Assembly: GCA_964539765.1 (NCBI GenBank)
Contig: CAZIJZ010000004.1
Span: 12,413-76,412, forward strand
Length of the DNA stretch: 64,000 nt
Source: an uncultured Smithella sp.
GTDB lineage: Bacteria > Desulfobacterota > Syntrophia > Syntrophales > Smithellaceae
Direction of reading: 5' to 3'
The notes beneath the pieces are model-generated. The model made no database searches and was not told where the DNA came from. It was given only the letters and a program-made list of their open reading frames with translations. The translations under genes and the position numbers were made by a program. Shown one piece after another: positions 13,595 to 26,342 of this stretch. Within the stretch, counting starts at the first letter, position 1; the number at the start of each line of letters is the position of its first letter.

Positions 13595-14932
13595 ATGAAT
13601 AACATTATAATGAAAATTCGACGGCTCGTAAATTTCATCGCCAATGACATCTGGAGAATCCGCCGCTCTCAGCTTTCTTCCGGCAAATCTTTCCTGATCA
13701 AACAAATGAGGGTTCTGATTCTTTCCGTCAAAGGTTTTCACGAGGATAAATGTCAGTTGCGCGCTTCCGCCCTGACATTTTACACTCTGATTTCGATCGT
13801 TCCCGTTGCCGCCATGGCCTTCGGCATTGCGAAAGGTTTCGGGCTGGAGAAAGTCCTGGAAACACAACTGCGAAGCAAACTGACCGGGCAGGAGGAAATC
13901 GTTGCCAGCATCATAAAATTTTCTCATTCTCTTCTGGAAAAAACCCAGGGAGGTCTGGTCGCCGGCGTCGGTCTGATTATTCTTGTCTGGGCCGTTTTCA
14001 AACTTCTGGGACAGATTGAGTCTTCTCTCAACGATGTCTGGAAAATAAAAGAAAAACGCTCGATCAGCCGCATGTTTGGCGATTATTTAGCTCTGATGAT
14101 CATTTGTCCCGTCCTGCTCATTCTTTCCAGCAGCACAACTGTATTCATCACCACCCAGGTGAATGTGATTCTGGAAAAATTCACGATTCTGGGAAGTTTC
14201 AGCGCCTTCATCTTCTTTTTACTGAAGCTTCTGCCCTATGTGCTAATGTGGCTTCTTTTCACCTTTCTTTATATTTTTATGCCGAATACCAAAGTCCGTT
14301 TTGCTTCCGGACTCGTTGCCGGCATTATCGCCGGGACCATTTTTCAGATTTTGCAATGGTCGTACATCACCTTTCAAATCGGCGTGGTTCATTATAATAC
14401 CATCTACGGAAGTTTTGCCGCGTTGCCGCTTTTTCTGGTCTGGCTCCAACTGAGCTGGACCATTGTTTTATACGGAGCGGAAATATCGGTTGCCTATCAG
14501 AATGCGGACATCTACGAATTTGAGCCGGATTTTCTGCAAGCCAGCCATCGCCTCCGGAAAACGCTTTCTCTTCTGGTAACGAGCCGTTTGATCAAAAATT
14601 TTGTCCGCGGCGAAAAACCGTTGACAGCGCTGGAAATTTCCGACCAGTTGGAAATTCCTATTCGTTTTGTCAATGAAATCCTTTTCGATCTGGTAAAAAG
14701 TCAAATCCTTTCTGTTGCGGAAATCGAGGGGAAAGGCAGGCGCGGTTATCAGCCGGCGATCGATGTCGGCTCCCTGACCATTCAGTACGTCATCGACGCC
14801 CTCGAAACAAAAGGACTCAACTCGCTATCCGTCGCTGATCATGATGGACTCCAATCACTGGCCGAGTCCATGGACGCTTTCCGCAGAAAGATTGAAACGC
14901 TTCCCGAAAACAAATTTTTAAAGGATATTTGA
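13595..14932 (+). CDS. YihY/BrkB-family inner membrane protein with soluble C-terminal extension
   Basis: 445 aa. LRASALTFYTLISIVPVAAMAFGIAKGFG plus six TM helices, then a roughly 130-aa hydrophilic tail. Confidence 0.8.
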   Translation: MNNIIMKIRRLVNFIANDIWRIRRSQLSSGKSFLIKQMRVLILSVKGFHEDKCQLRASALTFYTLISIVPVAAMAFGIAKGFGLEKVLETQLRSKLTGQEEIVASIIKFSHSLLEKTQGGLVAGVGLIILVWAVFKLLGQIESSLNDVWKIKEKRSISRMFGDYLALMIICPVLLILSSSTTVFITTQVNVILEKFTILGSFSAFIFFLLKLLPYVLMWLLFTFLYIFMPNTKVRFASGLVAGIIAGTIFQILQWSYITFQIGVVHYNTIYGSFAALPLFLVWLQLSWTIVLYGAEISVAYQNADIYEFEPDFLQASHRLRKTLSLLVTSRLIKNFVRGEKPLTALEISDQLEIPIRFVNEILFDLVKSQILSVAEIEGKGRRGYQPAIDVGSLTIQYVIDALETKGLNSLSVADHDGLQSLAESMDAFRRKIETLPENKFLKDI

Positions 14933-14966: not shown

Positions 14967-15548
14967 ATGGAAACAATACTGGGAATAGCGGTGGGCATCG
15001 GGTTGAGTGCGGCATGCGGATTCAGGATTTTCGTTCCGCTGCTGATCATGAACCTGGCGGTTCTGAGCGGACAGATTCAACTGCCGGCGGGATTTGCCTG
15101 GATCGGCAGCATCTACGCGACCATTGCTTTTGCTTCCGCCACCTTTATCGAAGTGCTCGGCTATTACATACCCGGCGTTGATCATATTCTGGACATCATC
15201 GCCACACCCGCCGCGGTCATTGCCGGAACAATCACCACGGCGTCCATGAGCATGCAGATATCGCCATTTCTGAAATGGACCCTGGCGCTCATTGCCGGCG
15301 GCGGGATAGCAGGGCTGGTGCAAGGCTCCACAGTTGCTCTGCGCGCAAAATCCTCCGTGACAACGGCGGGAACCGGTAATGTCATCGTCGCCACGCTGGA
15401 ACTGATCGGAGCGGTCATCATTGCCGTCATGGCTATTCTTCTTCCCCTTGTCTGTCTGGCAATGATCCTGTTATTTATCGTCTTTGTTTTTAAGAAAGTT
15501 GGCGCATTCCTATTCAGAAAACCTGAAAAATCCGATAAAGCAACCTGA
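14967..15548 (+). CDS. DUF4126-family membrane protein
   Basis: 193 aa. GLSAACGFRIFVPLLIMNLA followed by Gly/Ala-rich TM helices, as is typical of DUF4126. Confidence 0.7.
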   Translation: METILGIAVGIGLSAACGFRIFVPLLIMNLAVLSGQIQLPAGFAWIGSIYATIAFASATFIEVLGYYIPGVDHILDIIATPAAVIAGTITTASMSMQISPFLKWTLALIAGGGIAGLVQGSTVALRAKSSVTTAGTGNVIVATLELIGAVIIAVMAILLPLVCLAMILLFIVFVFKKVGAFLFRKPEKSDKAT

Positions 15549-24863: not shown

Positions 24864-25035
24864 TCAGGTTTTTCAGGGGTCGTTTCAGAATTACTTATAA
24901 TTTTAAAACCTGATTATCGCGTGTCCCGGTTCAATATTTTTACCCATTGACACTGAATGTTAAATCCTTTACAAGTATTAGAAAGTTCTGTTTTTTTACG
25001 CAATCCGCTTTGACTGAACCATCAAGGAGGTAAAG

Positions 25036-25563
25036 ATGATGAATGTCTTTCGTGAAAAAACGTGGTCACCCTATGTCGCCGGCGCCCTGGCGGGACTTTT
25101 GCTCATCCTTTCAGTTTTCATCACAGGAAAGTATTTTGGCGCCTCAACAACTTTTGTCCGCGTTGCCGGTTATGTCGAACAGACCGTAACGCCGGAAAAA
25201 ATTGCCGGCATGGAATACTTCATCAAAAACAAAGCAAAAATCGACTGGCAGGTCATGTTTGTTGTCGGAATTTTCTTCGGCGCTTTGGCCGCGGCCTGGC
25301 TTTCCGGAGATAAACGCATGGTCTCCGTCCCGAAGATGTGGGAAGAACGGTTCGGCTCGTCGCGCGCAAGGCGGTGGACTGCTGCGTTTCTGGGAGGCAT
25401 CGTCCTGATGTTCGGAGCCCGGCTTGCCGATGGCTGACCGAGCGGACACGGACTGAGCGGTCTGGCTCAGATAGCCTTCAGCGGTTATGTTTCATTAATT
25501 TGTTTCTTTCTGGGCGGCATGCTTATCGCCCGGATTTTATATGGAGGGAATCATCATGAATGA
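25036..25563 (+). CDS. YeeE/YedE-family (sulfur transport domain) membrane protein, first half of a split pair; proposed selenocysteine at UGA 25435-25437
   Basis: The track ORF stops at TGA 25435-25437, yet the frame continues for 41 more codons (PSGHGLSGLAQIAFSGYVSLICFFLGGMLIARILYGGNHHE) to TGA 25561-25563. The UGA sits where the family has a conserved Cys (GARLADG-U-PSGHG). A SECIS-like hairpin follows. AAGGAGG RBS before ATG 25036. Confidence 0.65.
25453..25470 (+). promoter_or_regulatory. Candidate bacterial SECIS hairpin
   Basis: CTGAGC-GGTCTG-GCTCAG, a perfect 6-bp stem beginning 16 nt after the UGA. From memory, the hexaloop GGUCUG matches the apical GGUCUG of the E. coli fdhF SECIS, which lies at a similar distance from its UGA. 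Confidence 0.55.
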
Positions 25564-26083
25564 GCTGGTTATTGGGGCAGTCACGGGAATTCTCTTCGGT
25601 TTTGTAATGCAGAAAGCCCAGGTCATCCGGTATGACCGCCAACTGGGTGCTTTACGTTTCCAAGATATGACCATTGTTAAATTCATGCTGACCACCATAC
25701 TGGTCGCCATGGTGGGGATTTATCTGCTTTTTGATCTTGGGCTTGTCAAGCTCTCCATCAAGCCGCTCATTCTTGGTGGAAACGTGCTGGGCGGTCTGAT
25801 TTTCGGCATCGGCTGGGGTATTGTGGGATATTGTCCCGGAACGGCAATGGGCGCCCTGGGAGAAGGCCGGTATGATGCGGTCTTTGGTTTACTGGGAATG
25901 ATTCTGGGAGCCGGCATTTACGCCGAACTGTATCCGACAATAAAAACAACGGTTCTCACCTGGGGAAATTTTGGAAAAATCACCCTGCCATCCGTGCTGG
26001 GAATCAACCACTGGTTTGTTATTATCATCGTGAGTGCGGTTTTCTTAGGTCTTTTCCGCTGTTTTGAAAAAAAAGGCGTTTAA
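25556..26083 (+). CDS. YeeE/YedE-family membrane protein, second half of the split pair
   Basis: MNELVIGAVTGILFGFVMQKA...GIVGYCPGTAMGALGEG. I prefer ATG 25556 (GGAGGG 7 nt upstream) over the track start 25541. It overlaps the extended upstream gene as ATGAATGA. Confidence 0.8.
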   Translation: MNELVIGAVTGILFGFVMQKAQVIRYDRQLGALRFQDMTIVKFMLTTILVAMVGIYLLFDLGLVKLSIKPLILGGNVLGGLIFGIGWGIVGYCPGTAMGALGEGRYDAVFGLLGMILGAGIYAELYPTIKTTVLTWGNFGKITLPSVLGINHWFVIIIVSAVFLGLFRCFEKKGV

Positions 26084-26102
26084 GACGGAATATACAAAAC
26101 GT

Positions 26103-26140
26103 CATCTCTGTCACGGCAGTATCCGGCCGTGACAGAGATG
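26103..26140 (+). terminator. Terminator-like hairpin after the YeeE/YedE pair
   Basis: Perfect 15-bp stem CATCTCTGTCACGGC / GCCGTGACAGAGATG with an 8-nt loop, 20 nt after the stop codon. No U-tract. Confidence 0.45.
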
Positions 26141-26342
26141 GACGCGGATTAAAAGATTCTGTTTGAAGAATAAATTCATCTTGCCGTCTTTTTAAAAGAA
26201 AAATCTTTTCCTTTTTACTCGTCACTCAAGGTAAAAGCAAAAATTGCGGATTTTCTTCTTTCAAATAATACGATTAGTGCTATGATATGACAATAAAATC
26301 ACAGGCACAAAGAAGGAATCACAGGTACCGGGAGAAGAAACG

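What the first reader, a model, noticed from the sequence alone, without database searches (positions are those of the whole stretch)
25036..25563. In-frame UGA at the conserved-Cys position of a split YeeE/YedE sulfur-transport protein, followed by a SECIS-like hairpin: candidate selenoprotein
Taken at face value the ORF ends at TGA 25435-25437 (133 aa). That would cut the protein just before the family loop motif and its last TM helix.

The same frame stays open for 41 more codons (PSGHGLSGLAQIAFSGYVSLICFFLGGMLIARILYGGNHHE). It ends at TGA 25561-25563, which overlaps ATG 25556 of the second-half gene (ATGAATGA), a typical coupled-operon junction.

The UGA sits in GARLADG-U-PSGHGLSG. YeeE/YedE proteins carry a conserved Cys there (G-G-C-x-x-G-type loop), and the partner gene has the equivalent GYCPGT.

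Sixteen nt after the UGA lies a perfect hairpin, CTGAGC-GGTCTG-GCTCAG (25453-25470). From memory, its loop GGUCUG is the same hexamer as the apex of the E. coli fdhF SECIS, at a similar distance from the UGA.

A Sec in the substrate-relay position of a chalcogen transporter would be functionally interesting. I cannot say whether Sec forms of this family are already catalogued.
Basis: partly seen in the sequence, partly recalled or inferred. Interest (0 to 1): 0.85.

Follow-up and report, generated by a model that had tools for sequence, protein, structure and literature searches.

The report
Selenocysteine codon in split YeeE transporter
The apparent stop codon inside this small sulfur-transporter gene is almost certainly read as selenocysteine, so the gene is a real but already catalogued type of bacterial selenoprotein that gene callers cut short.

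Summary

- **The gene.** ORF 25036-25437 stops at TGA 25435-25437. The same frame runs 41 more codons to TGA 25561-25563, which overlaps ATG 25556 of the partner gene.
- **The Cys position.** The UGA aligns with an invariant Cys (G-C-P-S-G-H-G) of full-length relatives. It also aligns with C293 of the crystallised Spirochaeta thermophila YeeE, the periplasmic thiosulfate-binding cysteine.
- **Relatives.** Of 110 non-redundant related loci, 63 carry TGA at this codon and 47 carry TGC or TGT. All keep the downstream frame under purifying selection.
- **The hairpin.** CUGAGC-GGUCUG-GCUCAG (25453-25470) behaves as a bacterial SECIS. Its synonymous sites are almost frozen in TGA forms and free in Cys forms. 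Its outer pair covaries C-G to U-A in three separate lineages. Its GGUCUG lies one codon further from the UGA than in E. coli fdhF.
- **Novelty.** The YeeE/YedE family (PF04143, motif GUxSG) is already listed as a predicted selenoprotein family (Peng 2016; reviews of 2022 and 2026). This is therefore a new, mis-annotated member of a known kind. Nobody has characterised it experimentally.
- **Not tested.** The window holds no sel genes. Their presence in this genome rests on literature about Smithella and Syntrophus.

Interest is modest.

The parts
25024..25030 (+). Ribosome-binding site AAGGAGG of the first gene, 5 nt before ATG 25036
   Evidence: Read from the sequence.
25036..25434 (+). Codons 1-133 of the PmpA-like (YeeE C-terminal-half-like) subunit. 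This is the part gene callers annotate as a 133-aa protein.
   Evidence: ORF list. PF04143 match. The identical 133-aa product is called on 17 public contigs.
25435..25437 (+). UGA read as selenocysteine (residue U134, motif G-U-P-S-G)
   Evidence: It aligns with an invariant Cys of full-length homologues and with StYeeE C293. It is TGA in 63 and TGC/TGT in 47 of 110 related loci.
25438..25563 (+). Codons 135-175 plus the true stop TGA 25561-25563. They encode the loop motif PSGHG and the last transmembrane helix.
   Evidence: The frame is open. The Pfam match extends to residue 163. The amino-acid sequence is conserved in all relatives, with dN/dS 0.03-0.3.
25453..25470 (+). SECIS hairpin. 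Stem 25453-25458 pairs with 25465-25470; apical loop GGUCUG is 25459-25464.
   Evidence: Fold. 93.6% of cells paired and C-G/U-A covariation at the outer pair. Synonymous sites are frozen only in Sec forms. GGUCUG lies one codon further from the UGA than in E. coli fdhF.
25543..25548 (+). Ribosome-binding site GGAGGG of the partner gene. It lies inside the Sec-dependent extension.
   Evidence: Read from the sequence.
25556..26083 (+). Partner gene: PmpB-like (YeeE N-terminal-half-like) subunit of 175 aa. Cys93 (TGT 25832-25834) corresponds to StYeeE C91. Its start overlaps the stop of the extended first gene (ATGAATGA).
   Evidence: PF04143 profile positions 15-146. Alignment to 6LEO. The Cys codon is TGY in about 90 related loci and never TGA. 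The ATGAATGA junction is present in 22 loci.
26103..26140 (.). Perfect 15-bp inverted repeat just after the partner gene. It probably marks the end of the two-gene operon. The T-run lies on the - strand side only.
   Evidence: Terminator scan and the sequence. Its role is inferred, not tested.

Best explanation
Window 25036-25563 is one gene for a 175-residue membrane protein of the YeeE/YedE sulfur-transport family (PF04143). Its residue 134 is selenocysteine.

**Decoding (inferred).** UGA 25435-25437 is decoded by Sec-tRNA(Sec) delivered by SelB. SelB is recruited by the mRNA hairpin 25453-25470, a 6-bp stem with apical loop GGUCUG that begins 21 nt after the UGA. Translation then continues through the PSGHG loop and the last transmembrane helix. 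It stops at TGA 25561-25563, inside the start region of the partner gene (ATGAATGA), so the partner is translationally coupled to successful Sec insertion.

**Architecture.** The two half-size products correspond to the C-terminal half (first gene, PmpA-like) and the N-terminal half (second gene, PmpB-like) of full-length YeeE. They most likely form a pseudo-symmetric heterodimer. Its narrow central passage would be lined by U134 (equivalent to StYeeE C293, the periplasmic substrate-capture site) and by partner C93 (equivalent to C91).

**Function (inferred).** The transporter probably imports a reduced sulfur or selenium anion, such as thiosulfate or zero-valent sulfur. The more nucleophilic selenol would replace the thiol at the entry position.

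**What is shown and what is inferred.** Shown here: the recoding signature, the homology and the residue mapping. Inferred: SelB dependence, heterodimer formation, the substrate and the chemical role of Sec.
For: 1. PF04143 matches across the UGA (residues 5-163, E 2.5e-25).
2. All full-length homologues have Cys at the aligned column in ...RLADG-C-PSGHGLSG. Many database proteins of 132-134 aa end exactly at ...RLADG.
3. In one-genome-per-species representatives, 34 of 36 close relatives have TGA and 2 have TGT or TGC. Over 110 non-redundant loci the counts are 63 TGA, 35 TGC and 12 TGT. TGA forms also occur in Syntrophorhabdus (including the isolate S. aromaticivorans UI) and in Nitrospirota, Desulfobacteraceae, Synergistetes, Anaerolineales and Veillonellaceae MAGs.
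4. Downstream of the UGA, dN is 0.03-0.4 while dS is saturated. dN/dS is 0.03-0.3, the same as upstream. The stop/start overlap at the end of the extended frame is conserved.
5. Third-position entropy at codons +6 to +9 (CUG AGC GGU CUG) is 0.28, 0, 0.12 and 0.48 bits in Sec forms against 1.38, 0.96, 1.75 and 1.69 in Cys forms. Flanking four-fold sites are equally free in both (about 1.7-1.9 bits). The loop Gly codon is GGT in 62 of 63 Sec forms against 19 of 47 Cys forms.
6. With the identical peptide LSGSLQ, 21 Sec forms all read CTGAGCGGTTCGCTNCAG. Of 12 Cys forms with that peptide (or ISGSLQ), only one has that string.
7. The outer pair changes C-G to U-A in a 13-sequence Syntrophales clade. 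It does so independently in L089 and L092.
8. Local folding is stronger in Sec forms than in Cys forms (-12.2 vs -9.6 kcal/mol, Mann-Whitney p = 8e-5).
9. The exact 133-aa product, and therefore the TGA, is present on 17 contigs from at least four independent samples.
10. U134 aligns with StYeeE C293 and partner C93 with C91. Both are essential, and C293 contacts thiosulfate (PMC7449682).
11. The family is already listed as a selenoprotein family with motif GUxSG (PMC13188914 and PMC9312934; supplement of PMC5029168).
12. A Smithella composite genome is reported to carry selA, selB, selC and selD (PMC5389517). Syntrophus aciditrophicus is listed with 16 selenoprotein genes.
Against: - No selA, selB, selC or selD, and no second selenoprotein gene, lies in the 64-kb window. 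The capacity of this particular genome to decode Sec is therefore not shown directly.
- No Rfam family matches. No bacterial SECIS matched, so this is uninformative.
- The hairpin alone is not thermodynamically unusual (z = -0.9).
- RNAalifold on the 35-sequence alignment preferred a different, weak consensus structure.
- A few Cys-form relatives (L004, L028, L086, L097) keep the same hairpin. The hairpin is thus not strictly exclusive to TGA forms. These are close relatives and may be recent conversions.
- There is no experimental evidence for selenium in any member of this family.
Confidence: 0.88

Rival explanations
1. The UGA is recoded, wholly or partly, as cysteine rather than selenocysteine. 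The agent would be a tRNA(Sec)-like tRNA(Cys) (selC*), possibly with a dedicated SelB paralogue. Such tRNAs were described in deltaproteobacteria, including a Smithella composite genome. The hairpin would still serve as the recruiting element.
For: PMC5389517 reports selC* tRNA(Cys) genes in a Smithella composite genome. [quoted passage not shown] The closest genome representative of the window gene is a Smithella MAG (94% identity).
Against: The same paper reports complete selABCD sets in all selC*-containing genomes, so Sec insertion remains available. TGA forms occur in many phyla where selC* is not reported. Keeping a costly UGA plus SECIS merely to insert Cys, when TGC/TGT alleles exist in relatives, is hard to explain. 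No selC* gene could be looked for here.
Confidence: 0.07
2. The UGA is a genuine stop. The gene would make a truncated 133-residue protein, or be a pseudogene. The 41 downstream codons would be untranslated spacer.
For: Every public gene call for this protein and its relatives stops there, giving 132-134 aa products. Termination is the default reading of UGA. Other genes of the window end normally in TGA.
Against: The downstream frame is open in all 63 TGA loci. It is conserved as protein with saturated synonymous change. The Pfam match continues through it. Truncation would remove the invariant PSGHG loop and the last transmembrane helix. The stop/start overlap with the partner lies at the end of the extended frame.
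Confidence: 0.02
3. The UGA is read through without SelB, for example by near-cognate tRNA(Trp) or tRNA(Cys). The hairpin would be only a by-product of the conserved peptide LSGLAQ.
For: Some Cys-form relatives with the same peptide also carry the hairpin (L004, L028, L086, L097). The hairpin is not thermodynamically exceptional.
Against: Synonymous sites of the hairpin are frozen only in TGA forms. With an identical peptide, Cys forms vary freely at the nucleotide level while Sec forms do not. There are compensatory double changes in three lineages. The GGU of the apical loop sits at fdhF-like spacing.
Confidence: 0.02
4. The TGA is a sequencing or assembly error for TGC or TGT.
For: A single-base change would restore Cys.
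Against: The identical product is found on 17 contigs from at least four independent samples. TGA is present in 34 species-level relatives.
Confidence: 0.005

Closest known systems
YeeE/YedE-family predicted selenoprotein (PF04143, motif GUxSG, example WP_012471001.1). Listed in Peng et al. 2016 (supplement) and in the reviews PMC9312934 (2022) and PMC13188914 (2026).
   Same: Same Pfam family. Same motif around the Sec (G-U-P-S-G here). One Sec per protein. Predicted by comparative genomics only.
   Different: The example sequence itself could not be fetched and aligned here, so identity of subfamily and length is inferred from the motif and family name. Peng 2016 counted only 5 genes in 5 organisms. 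Here TGA forms were found in 63 loci, including 34 of 36 Syntrophales/Smithella species representatives.
PmpA/PmpB short YeeE-family pair (Serratia sp. ATCC 39006; analysed in PMC11582611)
   Same: Two adjacent half-size genes. The first-type subunit matches the C-terminal half of YeeE, with a Cys equivalent to C293. The other matches the N-terminal half, with a Cys equivalent to C91. A heterodimer is proposed.
   Different: PmpA and PmpB are described as about 130 aa; the proteins here are 175 aa each. Here the C293-equivalent is Sec. No pmpC-like or regulator gene is adjacent. Direct sequence comparison with Serratia PmpAB was not possible.
TsuA/YeeE thiosulfate transporter (Spirochaeta thermophila structures 6LEO, 6LEP, 8J4C; E. 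coli YeeE)
   Same: Homologous fold halves (phmmer E 7e-6 and 6e-12). Conserved G-G-C-x-x-G loops. U134 and partner C93 align with the essential C293 and C91.
   Different: TsuA is a single chain of 330-350 aa with a third Cys (C22; it aligns with Ile in the partner here) and a central extra helix. It needs the adjacent TusA-like YeeD/TsuB, and no such gene is near this pair. NCBIfam TsuA scores are far below the cut-offs (44-53 vs 400-645 bits).
E. coli fdhF SECIS (bacterial Sec insertion element)
   Same: A hairpin directly downstream of the UGA inside the coding region. GGUCUG is at the apex. The distance from the UGA differs by exactly one codon.
   Different: In fdhF the loop is GGUC on a longer interrupted stem. 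Here there is a plain 6-bp stem with a 6-nt loop. A second variant in relatives is CUGAGCG-GUU-CGCU(U/C)CAG, with a bulge on the 3' side.

Membership tests
Bacterial selenoprotein gene (Sec-UGA with SECIS) | In-frame UGA at a position occupied by Cys in homologues | tested here: met
   Cys is invariant in 19 full-length homologues. The counts are 47 TGC/TGT against 63 TGA at the same codon.
Bacterial selenoprotein gene (Sec-UGA with SECIS) | Reading frame open and conserved as protein downstream of the UGA | tested here: met
   The frame is open in all TGA loci. dN/dS is 0.03-0.3 with saturated dS, as upstream. The Pfam match spans the UGA.
Bacterial selenoprotein gene (Sec-UGA with SECIS) | Stem-loop shortly downstream of the UGA with a G/GU-containing apical loop, conserved at RNA level | tested here: met
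   The hairpin is at 25453-25470 and the loop GGUCUG starts 21 nt after the UGA. Pairing is 93.6% with covariation. Synonymous sites are frozen only in Sec forms. Spacing resembles fdhF. No dedicated bSECIS program or Rfam model was available.
Bacterial selenoprotein gene (Sec-UGA with SECIS) | selA, selB, selC (tRNA-Sec) and selD present in the same genome | not testable with these tools
Literature only: a Smithella composite genome has all four (PMC5389517). Syntrophus aciditrophicus has 16 selenoprotein genes.
Bacterial selenoprotein gene (Sec-UGA with SECIS) | Selenium demonstrably incorporated in the protein | not testable with these tools
   This needs 75Se labelling or mass spectrometry.
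YeeE/YedE-family selenoprotein (PF04143, GUxSG) | PF04143 domain above the gathering score | tested here: met
   90.1 bits against a cut-off of 27.
YeeE/YedE-family selenoprotein (PF04143, GUxSG) | Sec within the motif G-U-x-S-G | tested here: met
   Residues 133-137 are G-U-P-S-G. The motif is as listed in PMC13188914.
PmpA/PmpB-type split YeeE transporter | Two adjacent half-size genes, one matching the C-terminal and one the N-terminal half of YeeE, each with one conserved Cys (C293- and C91-equivalent) | tested here: met
   Pfam profile positions are 172-310 for gene 1 and 15-146 for gene 2. The definition comes from PMC11582611.
PmpA/PmpB-type split YeeE transporter | About 130 aa with four transmembrane helices | tested here: inconclusive
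   Both proteins are 175 aa. The AlphaFold2 model of a 78%-identical Cys form shows four long helices plus short ones, but at mean pLDDT 54.8.
TsuA/YeeE thiosulfate transporter (NCBIfam NF041049 / NF052577) | Score above the curated cut-off; single-chain protein of about 340 aa | tested here: not met
   Scores of 44-53 bits against cut-offs of 400-645. The protein is split into two genes.
TsuA/YeeE thiosulfate transporter (NCBIfam NF041049 / NF052577) | Adjacent TusA-like partner gene (yeeD/tsuB) | tested here: not met
   Neighbours in the window are rlmN and an Adhesin_E-like lipoprotein gene. Neighbourhoods vary in relatives and show no TusA-like gene.
YedE/FdhT selenium-metabolism membrane protein (NF033796, TIGR04112) | Score above the curated cut-off | tested here: not met
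   Scores of 28-33 bits against cut-offs of 200-350.

The most novel reading that the evidence does not exclude
Sec sits exactly at the position of StYeeE C293, the outward-facing residue that first captures the substrate. Its recurrence there in many anaerobic lineages, while the inner C91-equivalent always stays Cys, may mean that this class of transporter works by transient covalent chalcogen chemistry. The substrate would be handed as a selenosulfide or persulfide from U134 to Cys93, rather than by hydrogen-bond relay. The natural substrate might be zero-valent sulfur, polysulfide or a selenium species rather than thiosulfate. A related possibility follows from the position of the partner's ribosome-binding site and start, which lie inside the Sec-dependent extension. 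Synthesis of the second subunit could then be gated by selenium supply.
Probability: 0.2. Interest if true: 0.6.

Novelty: new member of a known kind. Interest (0 to 1): 0.3.

Why it matters
**Annotation.** The gene and dozens of orthologues in public MAGs are annotated as 132-134-residue truncated proteins followed by a 120-nt "intergenic" gap. The correct product is 175 residues with Sec at position 134.

**Biology.** This is one of the few predicted selenoproteins that is an integral membrane transporter. The Sec replaces a cysteine that structural and mutational work on YeeE showed to be essential and in direct contact with thiosulfate.

A natural Cys-to-Sec series at that one site gives a ready-made set of variants. 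The partner cysteine never changes, and at least one MAG carries both a Sec and a Cys paralogue. Such a series can be used to test whether the conserved cysteines of YeeE-type transporters act chemically or only as hydrogen-bond donors.

None of this changes the fact that the family is already in the selenoprotein catalogues.

Tried and rejected
- **Rfam.** Searches at gathering threshold on the whole window and at E <= 10 on 25300-25650 gave nothing. No bacterial SECIS family matched, so this is uninformative.
- **ARAGORN.** No tRNA was found in the window, hence no selC.
- **Other selenoprotein genes.** I scanned the window for TGA-terminated ORFs with long in-frame extensions, or with an ORF upstream of a TGA. 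Only this gene stood out. The 82-codon extension after 13595-14932 is low-complexity and overlaps the next gene.
- **Pfam annotation.** The remaining window genes include no sel genes and no sulfur-trafficking genes.
- **RNAalifold.** On the 35-sequence post-UGA alignment it returned a different, weak consensus (-7.6 kcal/mol). I judged the named hairpin by pair counts instead.
- **Terminator-like hairpin 25509-25534.** It lies inside the extension, and I considered it as a possible attenuator. The equivalent regions of five relatives do not fold better than shuffles, so I dropped it as chance.
- **AlphaFold2.** The model of a 78%-identical Cys form from a 30-sequence alignment reached mean pLDDT 54.8 and pTM 0.32. 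That is too poor for a fold search, so none was run.
- **Sec in the partner gene.** A search at the C91-equivalent codon gave one pattern hit, in L092. It proved to be an unrelated frame.
- **Neighbourhood.** No conserved sulfur or selenium partner gene turned up; only the two-gene pair is conserved.
- **Sel genes in the same MAGs.** I found no workable route to them. Protein-seeded scans return only the closest 80-120 relatives of the seed, and no Syntrophales Sel protein was available as a seed.
- **Tool failures.** The scripting machine was lost, so a tblastn survey of the partner gene was replaced by pattern searches. Searches failed for formal reasons.
Full report
**1. What is in the sequence.**

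Reading the window confirms every coordinate in the finding.
- An ORF starts at ATG 25036, with AAGGAGG at 25024-25030.
- It reaches TGA at 25435-25437 after 133 codons.
- The same frame stays open for 41 more codons (PSGHGLSGLAQIAFSGYVSLICFFLGGMLIARILYGGNHHE) to TGA 25561-25563.
- That stop overlaps ATG 25556 of the next gene (ATGAATGA). The next gene has its own GGAGGG 7 nt upstream and runs to 26083.
- The hairpin CTGAGC-GGTCTG-GCTCAG occupies 25453-25470 and forms in the minimum-energy fold. The 66-nt stretch is not more stable than shuffles (z = -0.9).

**2. Family and architecture.**

With Cys placed at the UGA, the 175-residue product matches Pfam PF04143 (Sulf_transp) over residues 5-163. 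That is straight across the UGA, on profile positions 172-310. The partner matches profile positions 15-146. The first gene is therefore the C-terminal-half equivalent of a full-length YeeE and the second the N-terminal-half equivalent.

NCBIfam models for TsuA/YeeE and for YedE/FdhT hit only far below their cut-offs. The pair belongs to neither of those defined subfamilies.

Against solved structures, the first protein aligns with residues 231-328 of Spirochaeta thermophila YeeE (6LEO/6LEP, E about 7e-6). That alignment places U134 on C293 (ARLADG-U-PSGH against AVTAGG-C-NIGH). The partner aligns with residues 5-120 (E 6e-12), placing its Cys93 (GYCPG) on C91. The third YeeE cysteine, C22, aligns with Ile.

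In the YeeE structure paper, C293 lies in the periplasmic indentation in direct contact with thiosulfate ("position I"). C91 and C293 are indispensable (PMC7449682).

A 2024 analysis describes short YeeE-family pairs, PmpA and PmpB. They match the C- and N-terminal halves with one Cys each (C293- and C91-equivalent) and are proposed to be heterodimers (PMC11582611). The window pair has this architecture but with longer subunits (175 against about 130 aa).

**3. Is the UGA a Sec codon? Protein-level evidence.**

A homology search returned many full-length relatives of about 175 aa. It also returned many 132-134-aa proteins from Smithella, Syntrophaceae and other deltaproteobacterial MAGs that end exactly at ...RLADG. 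In the alignment every full-length relative has Cys at the UGA column, within an invariant G-C-P-S-G-H-G.

I fetched the DNA of 36 species-representative genomes seeded with the 133-aa product.
- 34 have TGA at that codon and 2 have TGT or TGC.
- In all of them the frame continues to a stop about 41 codons later, with a well-conserved peptide.

A second scan, seeded from Cys forms, added 80 loci. After removing duplicates there are 63 TGA, 35 TGC and 12 TGT. These proportions are shaped by the search patterns and are not a census.

TGA forms also occur outside Syntrophales. They are found in Syntrophorhabdus (including the isolate S. aromaticivorans UI) and in Nitrospirota, Desulfobacteraceae, Synergistetes, Anaerolineales and Veillonellaceae MAGs.

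Pairwise Nei-Gojobori estimates between the window and each TGA locus give dN of 0.03-0.4, with dS at or beyond saturation. This holds both for the 35 codons upstream and the 35 downstream of the UGA, and dN/dS is about 0.03-0.3 in both. The downstream segment therefore evolves as translated protein.

The stop/start overlap at the end of the extended frame is also conserved. ATGAATGA occurs in 22 loci and ATGA-type overlaps in many others.

The exact window product lies on 17 contigs from at least four independent samples. That excludes a sequencing error.

**4. Is the hairpin a SECIS? RNA-level evidence.**

- *Pairing.* In the 35-sequence alignment of the 66 nt from the UGA, the named stem is paired in 93.6% of cells. 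Slid registers give 9-42%. The outer pair is C-G in 18 sequences and U-A in 13, with no half-changed intermediates. The 13 form one clade, so this is one event. The same double change recurs independently in L089 (Desulfonatronovibrio) and L092 (Anaerolineales).
- *Second variant.* Relatives with the peptide LSGSLQ carry CUGAGCG-GUU-CGCU(U/C)CAG. It is shifted in register but still presents GGU at the apex.
- *Synonymous sites.* The strongest evidence is the contrast between Sec and Cys forms at synonymous sites. Third-position entropy at codons +6 to +9 is 0.28, 0.00, 0.12 and 0.48 bits in the 63 Sec forms. It is 1.38, 0.96, 1.75 and 1.69 bits in the 47 Cys forms. Four-fold sites just outside the hairpin (codons +3, +5, +13, +16) are equally free in both groups (1.7-1.9 bits). 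The loop glycine is GGT in 62 of 63 Sec forms and 19 of 47 Cys forms.
- *Same-peptide control.* All 21 Sec forms with LSGSLQ read CTGAGCGGTTCGCTNCAG. Of 12 Cys forms with LSGSLQ or ISGSLQ, 11 differ from that string at synonymous sites.
- *Fold strength.* Local fold energies are lower in Sec forms (-12.2 against -9.6 kcal/mol, p = 8e-5).
- *Comparison with fdhF.* In E. coli K-12 fdhF the UGA is codon 140, and GGTCTG starts 21 nt from the T of the TGA. In the window it starts at 24 nt, one codon further. In fdhF the loop proper is GGUC.
- *Caveats.* RNAalifold preferred another, weak consensus. Four close Cys-form relatives (L004, L028, L086, L097) retain the hairpin, most simply as recent Sec/Cys conversions. 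L003 (TGA) and L086 (TGT) come from the same MAG, so Sec and Cys paralogues can coexist.

**5. What could not be shown.**

The window contains no tRNA, no sel genes and no second candidate selenoprotein gene. I found no way to reach the rest of this genome or to seed a search for Syntrophales Sel proteins.

Support is therefore from the literature only.
- A Smithella composite genome is reported to hold selA, selB, selC and selD (PMC5389517).
- Syntrophus aciditrophicus SB is listed with 16 selenoprotein genes (supplement of PMC5029168).

The closest genome representative of the window gene is a Smithella MAG (94% identity). The window's taxonomic assignment is an inference from that.

The paper PMC5389517 also describes selC*, a tRNA(Sec)-like tRNA(Cys), in Smithella. 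It reports a second selB copy in related orders and suggests UGA recoding with Cys. This is the only rival I consider alive. It would change the inserted residue, not the fact of recoding.

**6. Mechanism proposed.**

*Shown:* one gene of 175 codons with a recoded UGA, a constrained hairpin 15 nt downstream of it, and a coupled partner gene.

*Inferred:*
- SelB bound to Sec-tRNA(Sec) recognises the hairpin apex (GGU) and inserts Sec at codon 134.
- The ribosome then translates the PSGHG loop and the last helix. It terminates within the partner's start region, which favours re-initiation. The partner's ribosome-binding site and ATG lie inside the Sec-dependent extension, so partner translation may depend partly on successful Sec insertion.
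- The two subunits assemble into a YeeE-like pseudo-symmetric heterodimer. U134 would sit at the outer substrate-capture position and C93 below it.
- The substrate is unknown. Thiosulfate (YeeE), zero-valent sulfur (PmpAB-like proteins, as cited in PMC11582611) and selenium species are candidates.

Gene neighbourhoods give no help. The window has rlmN upstream and an Adhesin_E-like lipoprotein gene downstream. One relative has a methyltransferase and rpsT as neighbours. Another has thioredoxin plus a pyridine-nucleotide disulfide oxidoreductase. Only the pair itself is conserved. The partner's Cys codon is TGY in about 90 loci and never TGA.

**7. Comparison with what is known, and novelty.**

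They are.
[quoted passage not shown] It credits Zhang & Gladyshev 2008 and Peng et al. 2016 (reference list).
- The 2022 review lists the same family (PMC9312934).
- The supplement of Peng et al. gives "YeeE/YedE family: 5 genes in 5 organisms".
- The main texts of the two primary papers do not discuss the family. I found no experimental work on a Sec form.

The window gene carries exactly the listed motif (G-U-P-S-G). It is therefore a new, mis-annotated member of a known predicted selenoprotein family.

This analysis adds several incremental points:
- the Sec form is the rule rather than the exception in Syntrophales/Smithella (34 of 36 species representatives);
- the Sec maps onto the thiosulfate-contacting C293 of the YeeE structure, within a PmpA-type subunit;
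- there are two SECIS variants, with a clear synonymous-site signature;
- only the outer of the two pore cysteines is ever replaced.

**8. Verdict.**

I put the probability that the UGA is recoded and the 175-residue protein is made at about 0.95, and that the inserted residue is Sec via SelB and SECIS at about 0.88. Novelty is low because the kind is known, and interest is modest at 0.3. The most novel reading still open is that Sec at the entry site reflects covalent chalcogen-relay chemistry in this transporter class. I give that a probability of about 0.2.

Noticed in passing
window 25509-25534 (+), T-run to about 25544: A terminator-like hairpin (9-bp stem, then TTTTATAT) lies inside the Sec-dependent extension, just before the partner's ribosome-binding site. 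The equivalent regions of five relatives do not fold better than shuffles, so it is probably chance.
   Followed up: yes
window 26084-26342 (hairpin 26103-26140; promoter-like site 26293-26265 on the - strand): The 259-nt gap after the partner gene holds a perfect 15-bp inverted repeat whose T-run is on the - strand side. A 10/12 sigma-70-like site on the - strand lies about 125 nt away, which could define a short - strand transcript. There is no Rfam match.
   Followed up: no
L003 (contig CAVSCG010000006.1, TGA) and L086 (contig CAVSCG010000026.1, TGT): One MAG carries two paralogues of the first gene, one with TGA and one with TGT at the same codon. Both have the type-A hairpin.
   Followed up: partly
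L004, L028, L086, L097 (Cys forms): These Cys-codon relatives keep the SECIS-like hairpin CTGAGC-GG(T/C)CTG-GCTCAG. This looks like recent Sec/Cys conversion that left a fossil or pre-adapted SECIS.
   Followed up: partly
L125 3006-4828 and L126 1054-2876: In the Syntrophaceae PtaU1.Bin231-like lineage, a thioredoxin gene and a pyridine-nucleotide disulfide oxidoreductase gene lie directly upstream of the pair on the same strand. A redox partner is possible. They are absent from the window.
   Followed up: no
All public gene calls: L117-L126 (e.g. L117 10001-10402, then 10521): Gene callers stop the first gene at the UGA (132-134 aa) and leave a gap of about 120 nt before the partner. Names given include 'putative inner membrane protein' and 'hypothetical protein'. 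This is systematic mis-annotation.
   Followed up: yes
L120 7564-8782: In one assembly of the same organism the isocitrate dehydrogenase gene is called as two pieces (162 + 252 aa) instead of 406 aa. This is probably a frameshift or an assembly error in that sample.
   Followed up: no
window 13595-14932 (+): This BrkB-family gene ends in TGA followed by an 82-codon open frame. The extension is low-complexity and overlaps the next gene (DUF4126, 14967-15548), so I judged it chance and not a second selenoprotein.
   Followed up: partly
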